Part shown: one piece after another, positions 2,170 to 21,105 of the stretch
How positions within the stretch are numbered: the first letter of the stretch is position 1
How the letters are laid out: the number at the start of each line of letters is the position of its first letter
Origin: Candidatus Heimdallarchaeota archaeon
Lineage (GTDB): Archaea; Asgardarchaeota; Heimdallarchaeia; JABLTI01
Direction: 5' to 3'
NCBI GenBank assembly: GCA_030614005.1
Contig: JAUWKS010000012.1
Coordinates: 30,001 to 62,000, forward strand
DNA length: 32,000 bases
Program-made: the position numbers and the translations under genes
The notes under the pieces: model-generated
The model's input: the letters and a program-made list of their open reading frames with translations, nothing else
Database searches by the model: none
What the model was told of the DNA's origin: nothing

Positions 2170-3561
2170 TTAGCTAAAATCATCCATTGTTCTTTGTTTT
2201 ATTCTTTTTATTTCGCCTTGAATGATTTTAATTCCAGAATAGTCTGATGTTTCTCCAATAGTTAATTCACCATAGCTGCCATCGAATCCTGGTGGAGCAA
2301 AGCAAAAATTACCTTTACGTACTTCAGCTATTGCATGAGCAATTTTCCCAGAAACCAATTTCTGGAGCAATTCTTCTAATTCAGCAAGAGGAGTAGTCCA
2401 TAATTTACATTCATTACCTATTGCACCGATTATTAATTCGTATATTTTTCTAACACTTTTTGTGTTTGGGCTCTTTATTCCAATACCATTTGCAATAATT
2501 TCTACAAGGGGAACCATTCGGTAAAAGTTTCTTTTGGGACCATACATTGAACCATATTCTCTTTTACTACCTTGTGCTTTGGCTAATTCTATTGCTCGCT
2601 GAAGAACACCCGGTTTTAAACTTAAATCACAAATAGGGCAAATCATATCCTTTGGAACCATATCAGGAGAATAAATACAATATTCATCTGCTTTATGGTT
2701 GTTTACTCCTCCTCTATGACCAGTTAGGAAATAACGCCCTTCAGAAGGATGAAATTCAGCAGTGTAGCAAACACGATTATTCCTAATAGTATCAATTAAT
2801 TCCGCAAAAGACATTTTTTTCATATCTAAACTCGTTAACTCTCTTCCAAGGCGATTTAGAGCTGCTGAATGCGCATCGCTATTTGAAAGTAAAGTAAGCT
2901 TGTCCAATTCAGGTATTAGAGTAGTGATTGTTGGATCAGCGCTTAATCCTGTTTCAAAAGCATGGATTCGTTCTGCTGCGGCACCAAAATAGTCAGACAA
3001 ATATGTAATGGACGGTTTCGGACCATATATTCCTAAAGGAACTAAAATATGCGCTGGGAAAAATTCAACTAACGGATCAATATCTAATATGGTATTAATT
3101 TTCGTACCAACTTCCTCAATAGAATTATTGGTAACAAAAGGTCGGCCCGTAGAATTCTTTACGCCCATTTTTTCTAGCGCTTGAATTGCTTCATCGACTA
3201 CGTCAAAACTTGGCCAGAGAAAGACACAATGAACAACTTTTCTATATACTCCAATAGGAGCAGTAATAGCTAACTCGGTTTGCAGAACAAATTTAGTAGC
3301 TTTATCTTGCTCTGAGGCGTTTTTCAGCTCGAAAATACCATTTTCGTCAGGATCATGTAATTGCTCCTTCAATGTTTTTAACCAAGGAGGAAAAAGACAA
3401 TCACCCGTACCTACTAATTGTACGCCTTTCATTGGCATGTTTTCTACTGCAGTACGTAAATCCAAACTACCGGTTCCACCGGCATAAGAGGAATGACAAT
3501 GCAAATCACAAATTACACCGCGTTTGTATTCCTCACCTAAATCAACTTGACTGATAGTCAT
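2170..3561 (-). CDS. PHP-domain protein with Zn ribbon, endonuclease Q family-like
   Basis: DLHCHS, GTGD, PAHI, ETGLSAD, NSDAHS, GRYFLTGHR and CPIC motifs match the PHP/EndoQ pattern. Confidence 0.8.
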   Translation of the reverse strand: MTISQVDLGEEYKRGVICDLHCHSSYAGGTGSLDLRTAVENMPMKGVQLVGTGDCLFPPWLKTLKEQLHDPDENGIFELKNASEQDKATKFVLQTELAITAPIGVYRKVVHCVFLWPSFDVVDEAIQALEKMGVKNSTGRPFVTNNSIEEVGTKINTILDIDPLVEFFPAHILVPLGIYGPKPSITYLSDYFGAAAERIHAFETGLSADPTITTLIPELDKLTLLSNSDAHSAALNRLGRELTSLDMKKMSFAELIDTIRNNRVCYTAEFHPSEGRYFLTGHRGGVNNHKADEYCIYSPDMVPKDMICPICDLSLKPGVLQRAIELAKAQGSKREYGSMYGPKRNFYRMVPLVEIIANGIGIKSPNTKSVRKIYELIIGAIGNECKLWTTPLAELEELLQKLVSGKIAHAIAEVRKGNFCFAPPGFDGSYGELTIGETSDYSGIKIIQGEIKRIKQRTMDDFS

Positions 3562-4603: not shown

Positions 4604-4714
4604 GGGCCGGTAGATCAGACTGGAAGATCGCCTGATTTGCAATAGATAAAAGGCTGCGGGCCAAATCTAAAAAATTTCAGGAGGCCGTGGATTCAAATTC
4701 CACCCGGTCCACCA
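4604..4714 (+). tRNA. tRNA-Ala(UGC) with a 34-nt intron (4642-4675) and encoded CCA
   Basis: Acceptor stem GGGCCGG/CCGGTCC with G3:U70; D stem GATC/GATC; anticodon stem CCTGA (4631-4635)/TCAGG (4677-4681); anticodon TGC at 4638-4640; T arm GTGGA-TTCAAAT-TCCAC; ACCA end. The intron at 37/38 folds via TAGAT/ATCTA and GGC/GCC. Confidence 0.92.
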
Positions 4715-4829: not shown

Positions 4830-5465
4830 CTAGAGTTCGAAAAATCTCTTTAGCTTAACAGGATCAGCTCTATCTTCATCATCAATCAGTATAAACACAC
4901 CGACATTTCTTTTGATGTATTCCTTGCTCCAGTCCTCTTTTATCTTCCATCCTCCTGTTGCAAACACTCCGTTATCCATATCGTAGAAAGGAACATGGGT
5001 GTGGCTGAGGATAATTTTATCTGTCTGAAGAATCTTTGGAAGAAAGTCTATGCTGTTAGTTATTAACTGTTTCTTCATGTTAGTTGCCGCTTGATTCCAA
5101 GTTTCATTCACTCGTTTCTTAAGACCAATGTTATGTCCATGGCAGATGATAAACCGACCTTCTAGAGTATTTAGTTTCACATAGGGAACTACTTGGATGT
5201 CCGGTCTATCGAATAGCAAGTTTCCTTCGTGTCCCATCCCACCTGTTACAAAGACTAACTTTTCCTTAAATCCCTTCTCAATACTCCAGTCAACAAAAGA
5301 GTCTAATGCCTCCTTTCCTGTTTCATCGAAATTATCTAAGAAATCACCGTTCATAATAATTATATCTACTTTCTTTGACGCGCTTTCTAGCGCTTCTTTG
5401 AATTCATCCTCTAAACATCCTTCTGCACCTAGATGTACATCACCAACCACTATTGCAAGAGTCAC
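4830..5465 (-). CDS. Calcineurin-like metallophosphoesterase
   Basis: GDVH, NGDFLD, GGMGHE (in place of GNH[DE]), CHGH and SHTH motifs. The GTG start overlaps the helicase TGA stop (GTGA). Confidence 0.85.
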   Translation of the reverse strand: MTLAIVVGDVHLGAEGCLEDEFKEALESASKKVDIIIMNGDFLDNFDETGKEALDSFVDWSIEKGFKEKLVFVTGGMGHEGNLLFDRPDIQVVPYVKLNTLEGRFIICHGHNIGLKKRVNETWNQAATNMKKQLITNSIDFLPKILQTDKIILSHTHVPFYDMDNGVFATGGWKIKEDWSKEYIKRNVGVFILIDDEDRADPVKLKRFFEL

Positions 5466-7777
5466 CCCGCTAGATCCTCCTTTGTCTTTTGTACTAAAAA
5501 TGAGTTGACTATTCCAATAGAATCTTCTGATACATTAGCAAATAAAGGTAAGATTGACTCTTGAGTTTGCTTATTTATTAGAGCTTCATTAACTAGTTTC
5601 CTCATTTGTTCTGCTACTTTTTGGAATTCTCTAAAAAGAAATGCCGCATTGCCTAACTCTCCACCTCTATCATAAATAACTATTTTATTCTCGTGTACGT
5701 TCACCACTGTTCTAAAAGAGGGCTCTGAAATATGCAATGCTATTTCTGTACTCTTTAGAATAAGGTCTTTCAATAAACTTAGTGCTTCTCTTTTCTTTTT
5801 ATTGCTTGACTTCTTAGCTGAAAAAGTCACCTCTACTAAGAAACCACTAGTTTTCTCTTGCGAGTGGAAAACCTGCTCGTCTTGATGATTATCATCTATT
5901 TTGTTACCTGTTTTCGTGTACCTCACAACTTCAGCAGTTTCTCTTTGAATGACCATTTTGCCAAATCGAATATTTAGTTCAGCAAATCTAAACACTCGTG
6001 CCTGTTTGTCAATTTGGATAGAAGGAGCCTTTAGTTTGTTTTGTTCAATTGATGATTTATTAATTTGAAGCTTTTCTACAACAATCTTCCTCTCTAGCGA
6101 TTTTTCAACTCGGTAGATATCTCCCTGTCTTCCTAGGTAAAGGAGGTTACCCTCTAAAGCCGTTCGTAATATTCTTTGCTCCTCAATTTCACCAATTATC
6201 CGTTCAAAATTATTATCAAGACTTCTCTCAACTAGTAACCTTCTTTGCCCTGCAGATCGAATTTTGTGGTTTCGTATGAACTGTAATAGCTCTTGTTCAT
6301 CAGCTATAATTAATTCACGTCTATCAGCAGAAACTTTGTGATTTATAGTTCGAAGAATGCCGTCTGCTATTAGCATAACGATTGCTGTCTGAGTTATTTG
6401 CTTGCTTTCCAATGTTTTGCTGAAAGCAAGAATTTCTTCAATTGTTGTTATCCCCATATATATTCTGAATAACACAAAAGCTTTCATTCTTTGTAAGGAC
6501 TGTGAGTTAAACAATATTTGTTCAGCAGTGTTCTCTTCAAGAATGGTCTTTATTATTCGATAATTTTCCAAATAATACTTATCCAATACTCGTTCTGTGT
6601 CTAATATTAGTGTAAAATTCTTTTTCTGAGAAATATCTTGAAATCGCAATCTTCCCATTCTTTGTATTAGCCCATTCTTACCTGTTATCGGCCAGCCTAT
6701 ATTGATAATATGTTGAATTTTTGGTATATCTATTCCTAACTCAAGCAATGATGTAGTGAATAGAAATCGAAGTGATCCATCCATTATTCTCTTTATAATA
6801 TCTGCTTTATCAGATTCTGTTAGTTGACTATTGATACACATAAATGGTGAGTTTTGTTTTACTATCTCTAATGGTAAATCTGTTTTTATCATCAATTGTT
6901 CATTAAATTTCGCCACTAACTGACTGACTTTTTGCACACTATCAATGAATACTAAACATATTCCCCCTATCCTTTGAAGATGTGGGTCGATTCGCTCAAG
7001 TATGAATTGTTCTAGTGAATCCTTAGGAAGGATCATCACTCGAATCACTCCCCTTTTGCCTACAGCTTTTACAATCTTTGCGCTTGGCAAGAAATTATCT
7101 CGAAATGAAGCAACATCCTTTACTGTAGCTGAAGCAAGAATTACTCTTAACTTTGGATTCGTTTGTTTAAAGGCTGCAATAAACTCTCGAACATGAGTTA
7201 AATATCCTCCCGAACCTGCATGTATTTCGTCAAATACCATTATATCAGTTTGTTTAATCCAGTCGAGAAAACCATATTTATCTTCCTTGAAACGTCTGTA
7301 GAACAATTTATCTAAAGTTGCCAAGATGATCTGTGGTTTCTTCTTCTCAATTTGTTCCAAGTCTTGTTTTGATAGGTCGCCATTGTATCTGCTATAGGTG
7401 ATCTTTTTCCCTGTTGCTTCGAGAATATGATTGCAATAGCGAGTTAATCTTTGTTCCTGGTCAGCAGCAAGCTGCTTGGTTGGATAGATAATGATTGCAT
7501 TAGAAATCTTCTCATCTATTAATTCTTTAAGTATTGTAAATAGAAACACTTCTGTTTTTCCAGCACCAGTCCCTACTGTGAGAAAAAGGTCATCACCAGC
7601 AAGAATTTTCTTCATAGCTTCAATCTGGTATTTGTAAAGAGTGTAGGGAAACGCTTGTTTCAATGCTTTACCAAGCTTCACCATACCTACTTCAGGATCA
7701 TCAATATAATGATTAGTTTTCTCACTCTCTTGTGGTTGGATATTAAAGGTTGCTTTAACGATGCAGTGGTTTGGCAA
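5462..7777 (-). CDS. SF2 DEAD/DEAH-box helicase, Lhr/Hrq1(SftH)-like
   Basis: Q motif LYKYQ, Walker A GTGAGKT, YPTKQLAADQ, DEIH, SAT, TSLLELGIDI and QRMGR. No C-terminal Cys cluster of the DUF1998 type is seen. Confidence 0.9.
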   Translation of the reverse strand: MPNHCIVKATFNIQPQESEKTNHYIDDPEVGMVKLGKALKQAFPYTLYKYQIEAMKKILAGDDLFLTVGTGAGKTEVFLFTILKELIDEKISNAIIIYPTKQLAADQEQRLTRYCNHILEATGKKITYSRYNGDLSKQDLEQIEKKKPQIILATLDKLFYRRFKEDKYGFLDWIKQTDIMVFDEIHAGSGGYLTHVREFIAAFKQTNPKLRVILASATVKDVASFRDNFLPSAKIVKAVGKRGVIRVMILPKDSLEQFILERIDPHLQRIGGICLVFIDSVQKVSQLVAKFNEQLMIKTDLPLEIVKQNSPFMCINSQLTESDKADIIKRIMDGSLRFLFTTSLLELGIDIPKIQHIINIGWPITGKNGLIQRMGRLRFQDISQKKNFTLILDTERVLDKYYLENYRIIKTILEENTAEQILFNSQSLQRMKAFVLFRIYMGITTIEEILAFSKTLESKQITQTAIVMLIADGILRTINHKVSADRRELIIADEQELLQFIRNHKIRSAGQRRLLVERSLDNNFERIIGEIEEQRILRTALEGNLLYLGRQGDIYRVEKSLERKIVVEKLQINKSSIEQNKLKAPSIQIDKQARVFRFAELNIRFGKMVIQRETAEVVRYTKTGNKIDDNHQDEQVFHSQEKTSGFLVEVTFSAKKSSNKKKREALSLLKDLILKSTEIALHISEPSFRTVVNVHENKIVIYDRGGELGNAAFLFREFQKVAEQMRKLVNEALINKQTQESILPLFANVSEDSIGIVNSFLVQKTKEDLAG

Positions 7778-7779
7778 GT

Positions 7780-8298
7780 CTAATTCTCTCCTTGGATTTT
7801 AGCAGCGTATAAAATTGAAAATATTGAACTAAATTCATCCTTTAAAAAATCATTTATTTCTTCATCGGTTGTATATTCTTCTCCTTTCGAATAAAATTGG
7901 ATTATTCCAGAAATGCATTTTGTTATCGCTTCTTTTCTTCCCTCTCGAGATAAGAATCTGATATTTGATGAAAAATTTTGAATTATTATTTCTTCTTCAC
8001 GTTCTTTTAGAGCGATTTCTTTATTCAATTTTGTTCTATTATATAATTCAGCATGTGCTTGTGGACTAATTTGTAAATGTGGAGGTAATGCTTGCCCTAA
8101 TGCGAGACTGTTATAGAGTTGAACCAAATTATCTAATTGGGAACCTTCTTTCAATCCAAAACGATATTTGTACTTTTGTCCAATACGCCATATTAGACCT
8201 TTTTTCTTCAACTCCTGAAGAGTTAGATACGTTTCTGTAAGAGCTATACCTGCTCCATCAGCTATTACTTTGGCTTTTTTTTGGATAGGCAATTCCAT
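7780..8298 (-). CDS. Hypothetical protein with a probable N-terminal winged HTH
   Basis: AKVIADGAGIALTETYLTLQELKKKGLIWRIG follows the TrmB/wHTH pattern. Confidence 0.5.
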   Translation of the reverse strand: MELPIQKKAKVIADGAGIALTETYLTLQELKKKGLIWRIGQKYKYRFGLKEGSQLDNLVQLYNSLALGQALPPHLQISPQAHAELYNRTKLNKEIALKEREEEIIIQNFSSNIRFLSREGRKEAITKCISGIIQFYSKGEEYTTDEEINDFLKDEFSSIFSILYAAKIQGEN

Positions 8299-8334
8299 AT
8301 TTTATGAAATCACCTAACAAATACCATATCACTT

Positions 8335-9831
8335 TTATCGTATCCATTCTATTTCAAGCTCCTCAAATCGATTGCAATATTCAATTACTCTAGGAGAAAA
8401 TTTATTCGGTTGCAGGTTATTTTCTTCCAGAAAATCCTTCTCTCGGTCTTCAAAAAGGAGAGACGAAGATTTAGAACAAGTAAGGTTTTGTTCTACTTTC
8501 TTAGCAATTCGCTTATTTGGGTAATACACTAACGGTTTAAAATTCGCTTTTTTGATCTCCTCTTGACAGATCCTAAAGGCTATGTCCTTCATTTGTTCCC
8601 TTTCTTCTATGTCTAATGAAATCCATTGAGCAGATAATCGCCAGAATTTCACAGGTATCTCTCTTTCACAATCTATTATCTTTACCATTAATTGCTTTTC
8701 AAGAAATTTCTGATGAATAGCTGAGAGTAAATTATCAAATTCAACAATAAATTGCTTACAAGCTTCTCTGAAGGTTCGATAGGTTTTTCCATTGAAGTAA
8801 CATGGTTCACTAAATAATTGTTGTTTGAGCTTGTAAAGCATCTCTTCTCCTCTTTTGTTAACAACATAGACAATCTCCCCTTTAAATACATCAAGTTTAT
8901 CAACTAATGAATTAGTTATTCTTTTGTCAAGAATAGCATGTACTAGCTTTATGTGTCCTGCGAACTTTAACGCTTCACACAAATCAAGCACCAGTCCCAT
9001 CCATGATAGATCAGAGTAATAACTGAAATGACTAAATCCCCCAACACCTAGATACTTTAAATCTAATTCATCAAGTATATTCCACAATTCCTCCTCACAG
9101 AGAATGAACATATAATTAAACAGAACATCTCCTTTTGTACATGCCATTGTTTTGTAATTGCCTGTTGTTCTTTTATGTAGATATAATCGATTGGACACTC
9201 GATTGCTGATAGCAAAATCAAAAGTGCTTATTAGTTCATTAGTTACCATCCAAGTAATATCTGCTGCTGATGCTTCTGAAAGATTACAGAGAACACTTGT
9301 ATTACAATTATATCCATAAAGATAGGCATCACATATTGCATCAACAAAAAGCTGCCACTTTTGTTTTTCTGAAGAGAACCCTCGCAATGTTTGAACCAAG
9401 GCTAATCGATTAGATAGATTCGACCGCCAAAAGACATTGTTTAATCCAAAAGAAAATCGCATTACATCTACCGTAAGAGCTCTTTGACAGTCCATTCGCT
9501 CAACTTTAAACCATCCTTGAGGAGAAGAAATGCGAACATAATGGCACCCTGCAGAAACTAATTGTTGTTTTATCTCCTCAGAAATTCCCTGATAGTCATA
9601 TACGAATTGTATTACTGACAAATTATATTGAAGCTTGTCTACATGAAGATTATAATCTTTAATAATCACTTGTTGTCCAGGCAGTATTTGAAAACCTAAG
9701 CTCACTTTATTCTTTTTCCGGGCTTCATCAAGCGTTAATCCAGTAAGTTTATACACTTCTTCATTGAAGATATGTTGATTATCCTTAACACATAATATAT
9801 ACTGTTGATCATCCTTTCTACTTTTACTCAA
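8335..9831 (-). CDS. Highly diverged Cas1-like endonuclease/integrase with a C-terminal extension
   Basis: Cas1 motifs in the expected order: N-terminal beta domain (LSVIQFVY..ISEEIKQQLVSAGCHYVRISSPQGW), SEASAADITW, DVLFNYMFIL...GFSH...GLVLDLCE, and VNKRGEEMLY...GKTYRTFR. Recognised by eye only. Confidence 0.68.
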   Translation of the reverse strand: MSKSRKDDQQYILCVKDNQHIFNEEVYKLTGLTLDEARKKNKVSLGFQILPGQQVIIKDYNLHVDKLQYNLSVIQFVYDYQGISEEIKQQLVSAGCHYVRISSPQGWFKVERMDCQRALTVDVMRFSFGLNNVFWRSNLSNRLALVQTLRGFSSEKQKWQLFVDAICDAYLYGYNCNTSVLCNLSEASAADITWMVTNELISTFDFAISNRVSNRLYLHKRTTGNYKTMACTKGDVLFNYMFILCEEELWNILDELDLKYLGVGGFSHFSYYSDLSWMGLVLDLCEALKFAGHIKLVHAILDKRITNSLVDKLDVFKGEIVYVVNKRGEEMLYKLKQQLFSEPCYFNGKTYRTFREACKQFIVEFDNLLSAIHQKFLEKQLMVKIIDCEREIPVKFWRLSAQWISLDIEEREQMKDIAFRICQEEIKKANFKPLVYYPNKRIAKKVEQNLTCSKSSSLLFEDREKDFLEENNLQPNKFSPRVIEYCNRFEELEIEWIR

Positions 9832-9832
9832 T

Positions 9833-11875
9833 TCAATTCCTCCTCATTTTCTTTCTCTTTTGAATCAATTTGAATGTAGTATTACACATTGAACAGCTAA
9901 CAGGTTTCAATCCCTGAGCTGGTCTATCATCTGTGCCAAAATCTTCAATTACAATTTCTCTCCCCTCCACTAAACAAGTAGAACATAAATAAGCATATAT
10001 CTCTTTTTTATCTGCTGAATATCCCACAAAACTTCTGGTAATTGCATCATAGAATTCTTCAACAGTATAAATTATAGTTACCTTTTCTTTTCTTATAAAA
10101 TGCTTGCAACCAACAGTTGTACTTCTGAGTGTTTTGGTAGCTCGAATATGGTTCTCACTTGAAACTTTTCGTTCAGCTATATTTATTGCTCTTCGCCAGA
10201 ACATACAACGTCTTTTTTCAAACCAATGACAATCCCCACAAACGACTTTGAAATGTGCCGGGAAATCTTTACTTGTATAATAATCAAGACTTCTCCCCAA
10301 GGGTGGTTTGGCTGTTAGCGTCTTCACAGGATACCCACTTTTAGATAGACTTTGGATTGCTTGCTTTGCTTCAAAAGGATTAATGGTAAGCATTGAGCAA
10401 ATTTTGTTTTGAGTAATAGGAGACTCAGTATTTGCCAGCAGTTCTTTTAGTGCTCGTTCAATTGTTTGTCTATCCATTTTCTTATTTATTGGTGATTCCT
10501 CAACATCATAGGATTTTTGCAAAACTCTATTCAAGAGCTTTAGACTTTCTCTTGAATCTTGAGTCATCTGATCTCTAAAGCAATTTAACATCTGGGTAAT
10601 TTGGAAAAGTACATAACTATTATTAGAAGCTGCTAGAATACTAGCAATGGTTTCCTCTTCATCTTTGAGAATATCTAACCTACCGATTAAAAATTGCAAA
10701 TCATCAAATTGTAATTTCCCTCGTGTAAAATCGCTAAATATTTCCTGTACTAGTTCCCATGTAATGATGTCATTCTCAGTTTTTTTTCGGATAGTTCTCA
10801 AAAACATCATAGGATCGTTTAGCATCTCTTCAAAGTAGGTTGAAGCAATAATGTATTGTCTTCCAAATGTAGTCAAAGTGAAACGACTATAACTACTTTG
10901 ATCTTTCTTTACTAAAGCAAATGCTCCTAGATGTCTTTCTTGCAAACTCTCAAATAGGGATATATTTTGGAAGTATTTCGTATGGAAAATTAATTCAGTA
11001 AGGTGCTGTCTCATTTCATCATCTGTTTTCTTTTTCTTTGCTTGATATATTCGAAAGTACGTTGCTTTCTGTAATCGTTCAATGAGTTGTTTTTTCGAAG
11101 GGGATCCTGAATATAAACAAAACAGAATAATACTCAAGAAAGCATCTTGTAATGCGTCCTCGTTTAATTCTTGATATATAGCTCTCACAGCCTCATTTGT
11201 TGAGATCATTATGTTATTAAATCCTCTTTCAATTTCTTCGGCAGGAATCAATCCGGTAGAAATAAAATGCTTTCGTACATGTGTTCTCTCTCGTTGAGGT
11301 AGAAGCAAAAGGATTGGGTCAATGTTATCAGAAATCCAAGACTTGCGAGCTCTATTAAGCGACTTATTCTCATCAAATGGATCAATGAAAATATACGCAT
11401 TGACGATTGGCAGCTGGACTTTTGCTTTCAAAGCATCGTCTCGACTCTTTCGATATAACAGATTTCGAGTCAACGTGTTATAACTTGTTATGATTAGCTT
11501 ATTCGCTGCTAGAGGGTGACTGTTTCCTTTAAATTTTGAAAACGTAGAAGCAATCTTCATCCCTGCAAGAGTTTTTTTGGAGGTCTCTGCAGTAACTTGA
11601 TCCTCATCGTAATTAGCATAATTATAGATTTTCTTGGCTTGTTCAGAGGTTCGAACAATAATCATTGCTGTTTGGTCGGATAATCTAGCTGAAAGTAAAG
11701 CTATAGTGGTAGCTAATTGTAACTGGTCTTCAGGGAGAATTTCATAAAAAAATATGTCTGTTTCACATAGAACCGTTTTTCGAATAATGCTTAAGTTATC
11801 AACACAAGTAAATGGATAATCTCGAAAGATAGTGGTTATGCTAATGGGTAATTGTGTTCTATAAGTTGTTATCAT
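9833..11875 (-). CDS. Hypothetical protein: degenerate Ski2/Hel308-like helicase segment, winged helices and Cys-rich C-terminus
   Basis: MIIVRTSEQAKKIY, LIITSYNTL and YIFIDPFD resemble decayed motifs Ia, Ib and II. ATYFRIY...FTLTTFGRQYIIASTY resembles the Hel308 winged helix. The C-terminus has CGDC..C..C plus CSTC/CSMC. No Walker A. Confidence 0.45.
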   Translation of the reverse strand: MITTYRTQLPISITTIFRDYPFTCVDNLSIIRKTVLCETDIFFYEILPEDQLQLATTIALLSARLSDQTAMIIVRTSEQAKKIYNYANYDEDQVTAETSKKTLAGMKIASTFSKFKGNSHPLAANKLIITSYNTLTRNLLYRKSRDDALKAKVQLPIVNAYIFIDPFDENKSLNRARKSWISDNIDPILLLLPQRERTHVRKHFISTGLIPAEEIERGFNNIMISTNEAVRAIYQELNEDALQDAFLSIILFCLYSGSPSKKQLIERLQKATYFRIYQAKKKKTDDEMRQHLTELIFHTKYFQNISLFESLQERHLGAFALVKKDQSSYSRFTLTTFGRQYIIASTYFEEMLNDPMMFLRTIRKKTENDIITWELVQEIFSDFTRGKLQFDDLQFLIGRLDILKDEEETIASILAASNNSYVLFQITQMLNCFRDQMTQDSRESLKLLNRVLQKSYDVEESPINKKMDRQTIERALKELLANTESPITQNKICSMLTINPFEAKQAIQSLSKSGYPVKTLTAKPPLGRSLDYYTSKDFPAHFKVVCGDCHWFEKRRCMFWRRAINIAERKVSSENHIRATKTLRSTTVGCKHFIRKEKVTIIYTVEEFYDAITRSFVGYSADKKEIYAYLCSTCLVEGREIVIEDFGTDDRPAQGLKPVSCSMCNTTFKLIQKRKKMRRN

Positions 11876-11881
11876 CCTACT

Positions 11882-12520
11882 TCACTCCTGGTTTAGCAAT
11901 AGCTCTTCTAGGTGTTCGGGCAGAGAAAGCAACTCCTCGCCAACAAACCGATCGATGTACTCCGCCATTTCTATCTCGAGTGATTCAGGAGAGCTCTCAT
12001 CAATAATCGAAACTGGGAACTTGTCCAGAAATTCCTCACTCAATTCTTTCACTGTTTCTTGTTTGTTTGTCACTCTTTCAATAATAGTTTCTAAGTGCTT
12101 CTTGCTAGTTTTAAGTTGCAGTAAAAATGAATCATCAGGTTCTTCTGCGAGTTGACTTTGGATTTGCATTTTTATATTGAATTCTGGTTGACTGATTATC
12201 AAAATAAATTGGAGAAGGTTATTATTTATCTCAAAAAGCAATGGTTGAGTGTCTGATCGTGGTAGTTTTTCAATTATCAACCATTCAGTTAGTTTCTTGA
12301 CTTTCTGTTTGAATGTCATCAAGCTCATTTTCTCTAGCACTTGATTGTACAATGACAGTACGGATGGGTACGTCACTTGACCGAATTTTATTAAATTATT
12401 TACTAGCAACTCACAGATAACTAGCAAATTAGCAGTGATTTTAATGTCTGGATTATCCAATTCCACTGAATTCGCTGGAACTGATTGTTGAAAAGCACTA
12501 GTGTGAGTCATTTCCGTCAA
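11882..12520 (-). CDS. Hypothetical protein with an acidic C-terminus; first gene of the operon
   Basis: 212-aa ORF (TTG start; ATG at 12511 is an alternative) ending 6 bp before the next gene. No motif recognised. Confidence 0.7.
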   Translation of the reverse strand: MTEMTHTSAFQQSVPANSVELDNPDIKITANLLVICELLVNNLIKFGQVTYPSVLSLYNQVLEKMSLMTFKQKVKKLTEWLIIEKLPRSDTQPLLFEINNNLLQFILIISQPEFNIKMQIQSQLAEEPDDSFLLQLKTSKKHLETIIERVTNKQETVKELSEEFLDKFPVSIIDESSPESLEIEMAEYIDRFVGEELLSLPEHLEELLLNQE

Positions 12521-12575
12521 TAATTTAAAGGAAAATTATGTTTTTAAAGTACTAAAAGTATAAAAAAACGAAAAG

Positions 12576-12596
12576 GTTCGAAAGAAGAGTTCGAAA
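12576..12596. promoter_or_regulatory. Tandem GTTCGAAA sites (palindromic TTCGAA core) upstream of the Cas1-like operon; possible operator
   Basis: GTTCGAAA at 12576-12583 and 12589-12596, next to an AT-rich TATA-like stretch upstream of 12520. Confidence 0.3.
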
Positions 12597-12745
12597 AGAA
12601 GGCAGGATAAGGCTTCTTTTAACTCTACGGAAGATTACTTTATGTCCCTTTAGAATTATATGTAATCCCATTTTTTCCTTTTTTTCTGTATTTTTGCCCT
12701 TTCTTTGAGAAATTTTCTCTTTGATTTCTCTAAATTTCTCGTGTC

Positions 12746-12839
12746 GGAACGACGACCGTTAAAAAAGACCACCGAAGTGTGGGCTTTTAGGTCGCACGAG
12801 GGGAGCGTTCAGCGACAGTTTTTTGGTCAAGGACATTCC
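12746..12839 (-). ncRNA. Candidate structured RNA or cis-regulatory element
   Basis: GC-rich patch with nested helices on the minus strand: GGAAUG/CGUUCC, GACC/GGUC, A6/U6, GUCGC/GCGAC and a C(UUCG)G tetraloop. Confidence 0.45.
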
Positions 12840-12909
12840 CTCTTACTTCTGAGCTGTGAATTTTTCTCAAAATTTTTTTGCTTCTTAAAATTGCAGAGTT
12901 ATTCTTAAA

Positions 12910-14556
12910 TTACTCTTTTTCCGTACATAATACAAAAAATGTTTTTACATACTGGTGTAGGACAGAATTTTGAATAGTGTTTGTTTTTACTATTTCTATT
13001 CCAAACCGATTTTTCAAATCTGTATAAAGTCTCTTACTATTATTTAGAACAATTAGATAATCCTTGCAGTATGCCAAAGATTTCAATAAGACAAGTAAGT
13101 TATCATTAGGTTTTAGATTTAATCTAGCTATAGTTTTCCTCGAACGGAAATGATAATGATCATTTTGTTCAAGAAAAAGCATTAACTGATGAGGTACGTT
13201 AGAGAATAAAGGTAGAAGCTTGAGAAGATGAGTGATAGGAAGATTTCCAGTGTATTCATAAGCAGCTAACCGACCTTTTTTTATTTCCAAAAAATCTGCT
13301 AAATCTTGCTGAGTCCAATGGTTATTTTTACGAACTTTTCGCAAATAATTAGTGCAATCCGGAATTAGAAGCATAGGGAGAAGTTCAAAATTAAAGAAAG
13401 TAGTATCATTTATGGTAATAAGAGCTTCAGGATTAATGTCTTTAACATACAAACGTTCGAATAATTTTGTTTTCCTGCTCTTTAGATATTGTAATAAATA
13501 CTCTATCTTAGTTATATGCCTTGATTTAAGATAATTACCTATTATATCTTTAGAGATTGCCATAATTTGAAGAACATAACTTTCACCATAAATTGATTTG
13601 TGATGATAAATGGAATACTTAATTTTATATTGATCCAATACTTTTCCAAAAGCTTGTACAAATTGTCTTGATGCAGATGAAAAACTAATACCTCTAATAT
13701 AAGAACCATCAGCATCCAATACTCCACTCCAGAATTCCCAGCGAAGAGTCTCATCCGACGTAAAAATAAGAGGTTCTTTCAAGGAATCATATTTTTTCCC
13801 AGTAATAGGTTGGTCTGTAAGGAAATTGGTTAACCTAACAATCCATTTGTTATTCAAATGCAACAACCAAATCTTCTTTTCACCTGATATTTTGCCTTGA
13901 ATACCAAATAATTGATTTGCTAATTTTTGCATCATAAGCATGTGGTCTTGTGAGAAATCCACCAATTCTATATTATGGTAGTTCAAGTGACCATCACCAA
14001 TGACTACTCCCAAAAAATAAGCTAAATCTTTTGAGAGTCTTGTAGGCATATGGAAGTGTTCTCCCCGAGCAGATTGGAAAGGAACATATTCTTGTGTGAG
14101 GAATTCTTGCCAAAAGTCACTTAACCGGAAAAGAGGGAAAGGCAGTCGCTGCTGGTTTTCAGTATAGTCGATGATCTTTTGTTGCCACTTCTTGATAGAA
14201 TAAGCAATAGCTGTATCTTGAAAATAATAACTGCATCGCTCAGCTAAAGCAAGTGATTGTTTTCTAATCTGTTGGGAAATCTCACAAGGTAATGTAACAT
14301 AAGGCAATCGCTGTAATAATCGTTCTCCTGACTTAAAATCGATTTTACGAATCAAAATGGAGTAAAGATTTAGGATATTAGGTTCAAGGAATATTTTTGA
14401 TTGCTTATTCAGCTCAATTAGTTTATTCGCTGTTAGCCACTGGTTTTTAGGTGTGGGCAAGTTATCAATAAGCAAAAAGTCTGTTTGCCAAGATTTAGGG
14501 ATTTCATCAAACATCTTATTGAGTACTTTGTAATTGGGAATATAAAACTCCCCCAA
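12910..14556 (-). CDS. Stand-alone double-motif LAGLIDADG endonuclease-like protein with an XRE-type HTH
   Basis: LAYFLGVVIGDGHL and FWSGVLDADGSY motifs; WTQQDLADFLEIKKGRLAAYE HTH. No intein splicing termini seen. Confidence 0.85.
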   Translation of the reverse strand: MGEFYIPNYKVLNKMFDEIPKSWQTDFLLIDNLPTPKNQWLTANKLIELNKQSKIFLEPNILNLYSILIRKIDFKSGERLLQRLPYVTLPCEISQQIRKQSLALAERCSYYFQDTAIAYSIKKWQQKIIDYTENQQRLPFPLFRLSDFWQEFLTQEYVPFQSARGEHFHMPTRLSKDLAYFLGVVIGDGHLNYHNIELVDFSQDHMLMMQKLANQLFGIQGKISGEKKIWLLHLNNKWIVRLTNFLTDQPITGKKYDSLKEPLIFTSDETLRWEFWSGVLDADGSYIRGISFSSASRQFVQAFGKVLDQYKIKYSIYHHKSIYGESYVLQIMAISKDIIGNYLKSRHITKIEYLLQYLKSRKTKLFERLYVKDINPEALITINDTTFFNFELLPMLLIPDCTNYLRKVRKNNHWTQQDLADFLEIKKGRLAAYEYTGNLPITHLLKLLPLFSNVPHQLMLFLEQNDHYHFRSRKTIARLNLKPNDNLLVLLKSLAYCKDYLIVLNNSKRLYTDLKNRFGIEIVKTNTIQNSVLHQYVKTFFVLCTEKE

Positions 14557-20815: not shown

Positions 20816-21073
20816 TAACTACTTCCTTCTCATTTAGATATAAATAATTGTTGTTTAGAAATTATTAAAATTTGCGATTGCACAACCGTGTTCTTAACGC
20901 TTCCCACATTCTTTTTAGATTATGTAATTAAAGTATTTCTAACTCTTTACTCTGAAACATGTGTTTTTATTTCTCTATTAGTGAAGGGGAGAAAAAATAA
21001 ATGAATTTTTTAAGGTGATTTCTTCTTTCTATAAAAAGAACACTTCTATAAAAATATGCTGCTTTTAAAGGAT

Positions 21074-21105
21074 GCCGTGGATTCAAATTCCACCCGGTCC
21101 ACCAC
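21074..21105 (+). repeat. tRNA-Ala 3'-end repeat, copy 2
   Basis: Identical to 4684-4715 over 32 bp. Confidence 0.95.

What the first reader, a model, noticed from the sequence alone, without database searches (positions are those of the whole stretch)
12704..12872. Candidate structured RNA upstream of the Cas1-like operon
A GC-rich patch in a 389-bp intergenic gap has nested complementarity (plus-strand coordinates): 12746-12751/12834-12839, 12754-12757/12825-12828, 12761-12766/12819-12824, hairpin 12791-12795/12812-12816, and CAC-CGAA-GTG at 12770-12779. On the minus strand the last reads C(UUCG)G and a C-A mismatch becomes a G-U wobble, so the fold favours the strand of the flanking genes. 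An imperfect outer inverted repeat (TTTGAGAAA near 12704 / TTTCTCAAA near 12863) encloses it. It could be an ncRNA cofactor or guide, a 5' regulatory leader, a terminator for the LAGLIDADG operon, or an ssDNA origin.
Basis: partly seen in the sequence, partly recalled or inferred. Interest (0 to 1): 0.6.

Follow-up and report, generated by a model that had tools for sequence, protein, structure and literature searches.

The report
Y-shaped folded element heading Asgard cassettes
The GC-rich patch is one copy of an undescribed, roughly 95-base Y-shaped folded element, probably a small RNA, that sits at the junctions between mobile, CRISPR-related gene cassettes in a few Heimdall-group Asgard archaea; its function is unknown.

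Summary
On energy alone the window copy is no better than shuffles (z -0.9 and -1.4).

Thirteen close homologues keep a different fold:
- P1: 12738-43 / 12795-12800
- P2: 12753-57 / 12790-94
- an apical hairpin, 12760-89
- a nearly invariant 16-nt segment, 12801-16

Two covariance models and a bridging subfamily tie this copy to at least 46 copies. These sit in eight species-genomes of one genus, plus one copy each in two other genera. The shared shape has a closing stem, a side hairpin and a long arm. In a 34-sequence alignment, 20 of 27 pairs change on both sides (0 of 500 shuffles reach this). There is no Rfam match.

The element always points the same way as the cassette downstream of it. 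That cassette can be a Cas1-like operon, a RAMP pair, TnpB or a NERD-type gene. The upstream gene is often, but not always, a multicopy LAGLIDADG-HTH gene. Homology between loci breaks at the element's edges.

The strand, and whether it acts as RNA or DNA, is unresolved. This scan had already reported the same family from other DNA of this genome.

The parts
12726..12823 (.). The structured element, window copy of subfamily 1. Strand not resolved.
   Evidence: Model R1 matches G000:C110:42723-42826, which is window 12723-12826, at 83 bits, the lowest of 10 hits.
12738..12743 (.). P1, first arm (CTCGTG on plus)
   Evidence: Pairs with 12795-12800. In 13 sequences: 74 Watson-Crick, 3 G.U on plus, 1 other.
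12795..12800 (.). P1, second arm (CACGAG on plus)
   Evidence: Invariant in 12 of 13 homologues; L016 carries a 2-nt bulge.
12753..12757 (.). P2, first arm (CGACC)
   Evidence: Pairs with 12790-12794: 63 Watson-Crick, 2 G.U on plus, 0 mismatches.
12790..12794 (.). P2, second arm (GGTCG)
   Evidence: Invariant in all 13 homologues.
12760..12789 (.). P3, the apical hairpin. This version is shared only with L018: CCAC/GTGG plus an A/T extension. The loop holds CGAA on plus, UUCG on minus.
   Evidence: Other copies carry CTCCAC-GAA-GTGGAG, CCCCCAC/GTGGGGG, CTCCAT/ATGGAG or CTCCATC-GCAA-GATGGAG at the same place. The stem is replaced while pairing is kept.
12801..12816 (.). Nearly invariant 16-nt segment (GGGAGCGTTCAGCGAC on plus), unpaired in the conserved fold. 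It takes the place of the side hairpin Ha of the other subfamilies.
   Evidence: Alignment. R1 aligns it to the TTGC-GTTCA-GCAA hairpin of L181.
12819..12824 (+). T6 run directly after the element on the plus strand
   Evidence: Sequence. Runs of four to six T follow the element in 7 of the 14 subfamily-1 copies.
12704..12712 (.). Outer inverted repeat, arm 1 (TTTGAGAAA)
   Evidence: Forms the outermost stem in both MFE folds. Absent from L018.
12863..12871 (.). Outer inverted repeat, arm 2 (TTTCTCAAA)
   Evidence: As for arm 1.
12629..12658 (-). Second conserved non-coding block (GTCCCTTTAGAAT core on plus), between the element and the operon promoter
   Evidence: Best-conserved stretch outside the element. 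A related AAAGGAATGTC block follows the element in subfamilies 2-4.
12596..12620 (-). Small hairpin followed by four T on the minus strand, just before the operon promoter
   Evidence: Conserved. Homology with the operon-less locus L021 ends just beyond it, at 12562.
12556..12570 (-). TATA-like box of the operon (TTTTTTTATAC on minus), about 40 nt before the start codon
   Evidence: Conserved in the loci that share this operon type. That it is a promoter is inferred from sequence only.
12910..14556 (-). LAGLIDADG-HTH gene (548 aa), upstream neighbour on the gene strand
   Evidence: Pfam LAGLIDADG_3 at 3.1e-8 and a weak HTH_3 match. Multicopy family: 13 matches in this genome and up to 17 in a relative.
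4830..12520 (-). Six-gene Cas1-like operon, the cassette headed by the element
   Evidence: ORFs. DEAD-box helicase and phosphoesterase domains. Paralogous copies elsewhere in the genome. The Cas1 assignment comes from earlier scan notes and was not re-tested here.
4604..4711 (+). tRNA with anticodon TGC (Ala) and a 36-nt intron, abutting the 3' end of the operon
   Evidence: Rfam tRNA, 51.9 bits against a cut-off of 29. Missed by ARAGORN.
21069..21104 (+). Partial second copy of the 3' end of that tRNA, next to a truncated sibling phosphoesterase gene
   Evidence: read side by side; phosphoesterase match.

Best explanation
The patch is one copy of a family of roughly 95-nt elements that fold into a three-way junction. 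A closing stem (P0) encloses a short side hairpin (Ha) and a long arm (P1-P2-P3) capped by a three-base loop.

The window copy is atypical. Its closing stem is almost lost, and Ha is reduced to a conserved 16-nt single strand.

I take the element to be a small structured RNA. It would be made either from its own promoter or as the structured tail of the upstream transcript, and it would end before the promoter of the next cassette. It marks the head of mobile, CRISPR-related cassettes.

Because it is the one conserved island between otherwise unrelated modules, it is also where modules are exchanged.

Cassettes with unrelated proteins carry the same element. Its partner is therefore more likely a host factor, or a factor common to the whole element family, than the Cas1-like protein itself.

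Shown: the fold, its conservation, its position and orientation, and the homology breaks at its edges.
Inferred: that it acts as RNA, on which strand, and what it binds.
For: Fold in the window's subfamily: P1 and P2 together give 137 Watson-Crick, 5 G.U and 1 other cell in 13 sequences. P3 is replaced by different stems that still pair.

Family:
- R1 finds 10 copies, all in one genus out of 82 genomes of the class.
- A pattern scan adds four metagenome contigs, and the genome records with true copies are all titled Heimdallarchaeota MAGs.
- R2, built on subfamily 2, finds 30 matches in the genus at E up to 1 (23 below 1e-5) and one each in two other genera.
- R1 also hits subfamily 3, at E 1.6e-4 and 0.026. 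This links the window copy to the rest.

Covariation:
- Subfamily 2 alone: 7 pairs changed on both sides (1 of 500 shuffles reach this); score 0.193 against 0.114 (0 of 500).
- 34 sequences: 20 of 27 pairs; score 0.401 against 0.191 shuffled and 0.045-0.096 for slid partners; 0 of 500.

Context: same orientation as the downstream cassette, with the first long ORF beginning about 145-400 nt away in the loci that have a downstream cassette. The cassettes are a Cas1-like operon, RAMP plus a 379-aa protein, TnpB, and a NERD-like gene.

An AAGTAATG box lies 21-32 nt upstream in about 12 copies, including two whose upstream gene is unrelated to LAGLIDADG-HTH.

Indels of 1-3 nt among homologues exclude the 67-aa plus-strand ORF.
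Against: - No expression data were available.
- The MFE z-scores of 31 copies are only about -1.3 to -2 on either strand.
- Wobble counts give no consistent strand. The window's subfamily has 5 changes that fit plus only and none that fit minus. The other subfamilies have 42 cells against 11 for the gene strand, but only 15 against 8 when counted by pair. A folded RNA should show one clear strand.
- Runs of T follow the element on both strands, and promoter-like boxes are not consistent.
- Three RAMP cassettes share no sequence upstream of the element, so they carry no promoter of their own for a gene-strand RNA.
- The A6 alignment was fitted to the model, which inflates pair counts somewhat.
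Confidence: 0.45

Rival explanations
1. It acts at the DNA level. The element would be a folded single-strand or cruciform site at which cassettes are joined, excised or replicated. This would be broadly comparable to integron attC sites, the end hairpins of IS200/IS605, or the forked hairpin of CTX phage. The first reader's 'ssDNA origin' belongs here.
For: Homology breaks sit at the element's edges:
- Three RAMP cassettes are alike from within about three bases of the element's model start (991 against 994, 1001 against 1004), close to P0, to a sharp common end, TTTGGTGATA.
- The window is a chimera. The element and the LAGLIDADG side are 90-93% like L018, the promoter block at 12540-12660 is 80-90% like L019/L020, and the operon protein p680 is 67% identical to L019/L020 against 40% for L018. 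The crossover lies at 12660-12740.
- C86 loses homology about 20 nt past the element.

Overall there is no consistent strand bias in wobble pairs.

On the strand opposite the genes the apical loops read GAA, GTA or GCAA. From my own knowledge, G-N-A three-base loops are unusually stable in single-stranded DNA.

Joining the two ends of a RAMP cassette would place its AATAATGA box about 27 nt before the element. That is the spacing seen at intact LAGLIDADG-element junctions.
Against: - No recombinase known to act on folded single strands was found. There is no Y1 transposase in the genome, which is 90% complete.
- No target-site duplication or conserved flanking motif is seen at the three RAMP cassettes.
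- In the 16-kb tRNA-flanked island of the window the element is internal, not terminal.
- Breaks at a conserved island are also expected from ordinary homologous recombination between diverged modules.
Confidence: 0.3
2. It is a transcription boundary: a structured terminator or insulator that stops read-through between neighbouring modules in either direction.
For: The element lies between transcription units. Runs of A precede it and runs of T follow it in many copies; in subfamily 2 both flank the closing stem. A hairpin with four T and then the operon's TATA-like box follow it in the window.
Against: As far as I know, archaeal termination needs only runs of T. A three-way junction with conserved unpaired segments and a conserved loop goes far beyond that. 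Runs of T are missing after many copies on either strand. One solo copy is kept beside unrelated genes.
Confidence: 0.12
3. It is a leader or cofactor specific to the Cas1-like operon: a regulatory 5' leader or a guide-like RNA for the Cas1-like machinery.
For: It lies upstream of the operon in 8 of the 10 subfamily-1 copies found in genomes. Diverged paralogous operons also have it in the same place.
Against: The same element heads cassettes with no Cas1-like gene (RAMP, TnpB, NERD-like) and occurs with no cassette at all. A TATA-like box lies between it and the operon, so it is probably outside the operon's mRNA. No part of it is hypervariable in the way a guide segment would be.
Confidence: 0.08
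4. It is chance complementarity, or a decaying gene or tRNA fragment with no function.
For: The folding energy of the window copy is within the shuffle range.
Against: At least 46 copies carry compensatory changes. There is no tRNA or Rfam match at the site. Frame-breaking indels rule out coding.
Confidence: 0.03

Closest known systems
Orphan structured RNA motifs found by comparative genomics next to mobile or defence genes (for example HEARO, later recognised as the IscB omega RNA)
   Same: A compact, covarying fold. It is multicopy within a genome, patchily distributed, and sits at a fixed place and orientation beside nuclease or transposon genes. It was found from sequence alone.
   Different: There is no sequence or model match to any Rfam family. 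It is not tied to one protein family. It has no variable guide-like end. The strand is unresolved.
TnpB omega RNA (right-end RNA of IS200/IS605 elements)
   Same: It occurs in the same genomes and beside TnpB genes, and it is GC-rich and folded within AT-rich DNA.
   Different: An omega RNA overlaps the 3' end of tnpB and runs to the transposon's right end. This element lies about 290-340 nt upstream of tnpB, and most copies have no tnpB downstream.
Integron attC sites
   Same: The structure is conserved while the sequence varies. The outer arms are the best-conserved part. It sits at cassette boundaries, and cassette contents are unrelated to each other.
   Different: attC lies at the 3' end of a cassette, is a simple imperfect hairpin with GTTRRRY-type core sites, and works with a tyrosine recombinase. 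This element is at the 5' end, is a three-way junction, has TCAATAG / CTATTGA arms, and has no known recombinase.
Conserved boundary or linker sequences between modules of mosaic phage genomes
   Same: A short conserved island between exchangeable modules, with recombination breakpoints at its edges.
   Different: As I recall them, phage linker sequences are not reported to have a covarying fold.
Casposon terminal inverted repeats
   Same: Association with a Cas1-family gene in a mobile island inserted at a tRNA gene.
   Different: It is not at the island's ends, and the models find no second, inverted copy in the window.

Membership tests
Any Rfam 15 family | Score at or above the family's gathering cut-off | tested here: not met
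   No match at gathering in the whole window. Only chance-level matches (E above 2) in 12500-12950. Nothing relevant in six loci of the other subfamilies.
Y-shaped cassette-head element of Heimdall archaea (the family defined here and, independently, in earlier scan notes) | Match to a family covariance model | tested here: met
   R1: 83 bits, E 5.9e-21, though the window sequence is itself in the model's seed. R1 hits subfamily 3 at E 1.6e-4, and R2 hits the same subfamily-3 copies. R2 does not hit the window directly, so the link is by way of subfamily 3.
Y-shaped cassette-head element of Heimdall archaea | Closing stem P0 around side hairpin Ha and long arm P1-P3 | tested here: inconclusive
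   P1, P2 and P3 are present. P0 is reduced to about 2 bp in the window, against 4-6 bp in most relatives. Ha is reduced to a 2-bp GC/GC remnant. A 9-bp outer repeat not found in the closest relative may substitute for P0.
Y-shaped cassette-head element of Heimdall archaea | Same orientation as, and 145-400 nt upstream of, the first gene of a cassette | tested here: met
   The element ends 206 nt before the TTG start at 12520; a later ATG would lengthen the gap by a few nt.
tRNA or tRNA-derived att fragment | Cloverleaf, or similarity to a tRNA | tested here: not met
   ARAGORN and Rfam find nothing at the site. The real tRNA and its partial copy lie at 4604-4711 and about 21069-21104.
IS200/IS605 end hairpin | A Y1 (HUH) transposase in the genome | tested here: not met
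   PF01797 gives no match in the genome, which is 90% complete; the controls give matches.
IS200/IS605 end hairpin | Insertion next to a conserved 4-5 nt target at the left end | tested here: not met
   The flanks of three RAMP cassettes share no motif.
TnpB omega RNA | Overlaps the 3' end of tnpB and reaches the right end of the element | tested here: not met
   It lies upstream of tnpB where tnpB is present. There is no tnpB in the window.
Integron attC | At the 3' end of a cassette, a single imperfect hairpin with R''/R' core sites | tested here: not met
   It is at the 5' end of cassettes and is a three-way junction.
CRISPR repeat or leader | Tandem repeat-spacer array | tested here: not met
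   The only tandem repeat in the window is unrelated. The element occurs once in the window.
Known self-cleaving ribozymes (hammerhead, twister, HDV-like, hatchet, pistol) | Match to the Rfam models or their conserved cores | tested here: not met
   No match. Cleavage activity cannot be tested with these tools.

The most novel reading that the evidence does not exclude
The element is the shared recognition site of a cassette-exchange system in Asgard archaea that has not been described. It would fold, as single-stranded DNA or as RNA, and mark the point where gene cassettes (Cas1-like, RAMP, TnpB, NERD) are cut out, circularised and re-inserted. The recombinase would be an unusual one, either the Cas1-like protein or the multicopy LAGLIDADG-HTH protein. 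A related but less likely reading is a new self-cleaving RNA that defines the 5' end of cassette transcripts.
Probability: 0.12. Interest if true: 0.85.

Novelty: new variant of a known kind. Interest (0 to 1): 0.6.

Why it matters
Asgard archaea are the closest known relatives of eukaryotes, and little is known about their non-coding RNAs or mobile DNA.

This is a compact fold backed by compensatory changes. It has no known relatives, is present in a dozen or more copies per genome, and always sits at the head of nuclease, Cas-like or transposon cassettes.

If it is an RNA, it is a candidate partner or regulator shared by several array-less, CRISPR-related modules. If it is a DNA site, it points to a new way of shuffling gene cassettes.

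Either way it gives a practical handle, in the form of two covariance models, for finding module boundaries in these genomes. It also poses a clear question that strand-specific RNA-seq could settle.

Tried and rejected
- **Known RNA families:** Rfam at gathering and at permissive thresholds, and ARAGORN, found nothing at the site.
rejected. Its 3' partners are not conserved.
- **RNAalifold's three-hairpin alternative on the plus strand**: less well kept than the P1/P2 fold, with 8 broken cells against 1.
- **A pseudoknot between GTCG at 12743-46 and CGAC at 12813-16:** not kept in L022 or L034 (read from the alignment).
- **The coding reading of the 67-aa plus-strand ORF:** rejected because of frame-breaking indels.
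- **Strand from folding energy:** the strand opposite the genes is more stable in 27 of 31 copies, but the advantage disappears in z-scores.
- **Strand from wobble pairs:** the subfamilies contradict each other.
- **Promoter and terminator reading of the flanks:** inconclusive.
- **'The element belongs to the LAGLIDADG-HTH gene':** I held this for a while. I dropped it when copies turned up behind unrelated or divergent genes.
- **IS200/IS605 ends:** no Y1 transposase and no target motif.
- **Empty-site comparison with sister species:** failed, because the genomes are too diverged, at 68-71% identity even in coding DNA.
- **Viral contigs:** no copy found.

Full report
**1. The observation**

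The finding lies in the 389-bp gap between a LAGLIDADG-HTH gene (12910-14556, minus) and a six-gene operon (4830-12520, minus). On energy alone the region is unremarkable:
- minus strand: z -0.93
- plus strand: z -1.44

Rfam and ARAGORN find nothing.

**2. Conservation and the real fold**

The intergenic region recurs at 69-79% identity in other species-genomes of the same genus. Record titles name the true matches as Heimdallarchaeota MAGs, and four metagenome contigs add further copies.

Thirteen sequences align well. Positions 12738-12816 stand out, and 12790-12811 is almost invariant. The conserved pairing is:
- P1: 12738-43 with 12795-12800
- P2: 12753-57 with 12790-94
- an apical hairpin, P3
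- in most relatives, a 4-6 bp closing stem P0 just outside

P1 and P2 together give 137 Watson-Crick, 5 G.U and 1 other cell. P3 is replaced wholesale between copies but always pairs:
- CTCCAC/GTGGAG
- CCCCCAC/GTGGGGG
- CTCCAT/ATGGAG
- CTCCATC-GCAA-GATGGAG
- in the window and L018, CCAC/GTGG with an A/T extension

They are not part of the conserved fold.

Within this subfamily alone the sequences are too alike for a formal covariation signal.

**3. A larger family**

The LAGLIDADG-HTH protein turned out to be multicopy: 13 matches in this genome and up to 17 in a relative. GC-rich patches of different sequence but similar layout follow the paralogues.

A model of one such subfamily (R2) found 30 matches in the genus at E up to 1, and one each in two other genera. 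The window-type model (R1) finds only the genus, but it hits subfamily 3 at E 1.6e-4 and 0.026. R2 hits the same subfamily-3 copies, so the window copy is linked to the rest through that subfamily.

The common shape is a three-way junction:
- a closing stem P0, often TCAATAG / CTATTGA
- a side hairpin Ha
- a long arm ending in a three-base loop, TAC or TTC on the gene strand

Covariation is strong:

| Alignment | Pairs changed on both sides | Score vs shuffled | Shuffles reaching it |
|---|---|---|---|
| Subfamily 2 (10 seqs) | 7 | 0.193 vs 0.114 | 0 of 500 (1 of 500 for the pair count) |
| 34 sequences | 20 of 27 | 0.401 vs 0.191 (slid partners 0.045-0.096) | 0 of 500 |

One caveat applies: the 34-sequence alignment was fitted to the model.

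The window copy scores lowest of its subfamily. Its P0 is nearly gone, and Ha is reduced to the invariant 16-nt segment. It is absent from the closest relative, L018.

**4. Context**

The element always has the orientation of the cassette downstream of it. Where there is such a cassette, its first long ORF begins about 145-400 nt away. The cassettes seen are:
- Cas1-like operons, in the window and in diverged paralogues on three other contigs
- a RAMP protein plus a 379-aa protein, three copies
- TnpB, one intact and one decayed
- a NERD-like gene, in another genus
- nothing at all: C86, L021 and a solo copy, L083

The upstream gene is usually LAGLIDADG-HTH, but four copies differ. Three sit behind proteins unrelated to it (one with an AlbA_2 domain, two with no Pfam match). 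The fourth sits behind a gene on the opposite strand. The element therefore belongs to neither the Cas1-like operon nor the LAGLIDADG gene in particular.

**5. Module junctions**

- The three RAMP cassettes are homologous from within about three bases of the element's start to a sharp common end, TTTGGTGATA. That end lies about 36 nt after the 379-aa gene in the copy where I measured it, and nothing is shared beyond either end.
- The window locus is a chimera. Its element and LAGLIDADG side resemble L018 (0.90-0.93). Its promoter block resembles L019/L020 (0.80-0.90). Its p680 protein is 67% identical to L019/L020 against 40% for L018. The switch lies at 12660-12740, at the element's edge, where the window also lacks about 14 nt present in relatives.
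- An AAGTAATG box lies 21-32 nt before the element in about 12 copies. The RAMP cassettes end with a similar box 24 nt from their 3' end. A circle junction would therefore recreate the usual spacing. This last point is an idea, not a result.

**6. Strand, and RNA or DNA**

This is the weak point.
- In the window's subfamily all five one-sided changes are C-to-T opposite G on the plus strand. By my own estimate that is about 5% likely by chance.
- Runs of four to six T follow the element on plus in half of that subfamily's copies. The solo copy has two T6 runs there.
- In the other subfamilies the gene strand has 42 G.U cells against 11 A.C cells, but only 15 against 8 when counted by pair.
- The z-scores are similar on both strands.
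- Loops read UUC, UAC or UUCG on the gene strand, and GAA, GUA or GCAA on the other.

I therefore rate a small RNA at 0.45, a DNA-level junction or replication site at 0.30, a boundary terminator at 0.12, an operon-specific leader at 0.08, and chance at 0.03.

**7. Comparison and novelty**

- No Rfam family matches.
- It is not a TnpB omega RNA: it is on the wrong side of the gene.
- It is not an IS200/IS605 end: there is no Y1 transposase and no target motif.
- It is not an attC site: it sits at the wrong end of the cassette and has the wrong shape.
- It is not a CRISPR repeat.
- It is not a casposon end.

Literature searches gave nothing on it.

It is best filed as a new family among the orphan structured motifs that accompany mobile and defence genes. 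Earlier notes of this scan (e1-5382909, e1-5382910) describe the same family from other pieces of this genome. I reached the family independently through the paralogues. I then used their hint that it is tied to neither gene, and confirmed it.

**8. Side result**

A tRNA with anticodon TGC and a 36-nt intron lies at 4604-4711. A partial copy of its 3' end lies at about 21069-21104, next to a truncated sibling phosphoesterase gene. The operon, the element, and the LAGLIDADG, NERD and MmeI genes thus form a 16-kb island flanked by a tRNA-end repeat. The element is internal to that island.

Noticed in passing
window 4604-4711 (+) and about 21069-21104: A tRNA with anticodon TGC (Ala) and a 36-nt intron. 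ARAGORN missed it, and so did the whole-window Rfam run. A roughly 35-nt copy of its 3' end recurs 16.4 kb away, beside a truncated sibling phosphoesterase gene and a shared non-coding stretch of about 114 nt. The island in between is therefore flanked by a tRNA-end repeat, and a second, older insertion seems to lie in tandem.
   Followed up: partly
window 12910-14556 (-); G000 contigs C8, C9, C41, C48, C63, C67, C78, C86, C122: The LAGLIDADG-HTH protein is a multicopy family (13 matches in this genome, 17 in G005) at 30-66% identity. It is nearly confined to one genus. Several copies lie next to TnpB genes (C8, C9, C63, C78, C86 and L021).
   Followed up: partly
G000:C9 about 62.9-65.4 kb, 96.8-99.3 kb and 155.4-157.9 kb (loci L216-L218): Three paralogous 2.46-kb cassettes (the element, a RAMP protein, a 379-aa zinc-ribbon protein) with sharp common ends. 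The 3' end carries a small covarying hairpin (AAATAAT / ATTATTT against AAACAA / TTGTTT) followed by GGTGATA. No target duplication is seen.
   Followed up: partly
window 12660-12740: Crossover point of a chimeric locus. The LAGLIDADG side and the element are L018-like, while the promoter block and operon are L019/L020-like. About 14 nt (the CTCACAAAC box of relatives) are missing here.
   Followed up: yes
window 12629-12658: A second strongly conserved non-coding block (core GTCCCTTTAGAAT on plus). A related AAAGGAATGTC block sits at the same place in the other Cas1-type subfamilies. It may be an operator or part of the operon's control region.
   Followed up: no
21-32 nt upstream of the element in about 12 copies (e.g. 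L193, L203, L206, L213): A conserved AAGTAATG box at fixed spacing. It is also present where the upstream gene is unrelated to LAGLIDADG-HTH. In some copies it overlaps the LAGLIDADG stop codon. It may be a promoter or half of a junction site.
   Followed up: partly
L223 (G044:C42) 3237-3332 and L224 (G011:C291) 5445-5542: Copies of the element outside the main genus. In G044 it heads a cassette that begins with a homologue of the window's NERD-domain protein. G044 is also the only genome of its genus with LAGLIDADG-HTH matches, which suggests transfer between genera.
   Followed up: partly
L191 and L192, about 50 nt upstream of their elements: An extra mini-hairpin, TTGC-TGAAC-GCAA. The same motif forms the side hairpin of L181 and survives as GCTGAACGC in the window's invariant segment.
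   Followed up: no
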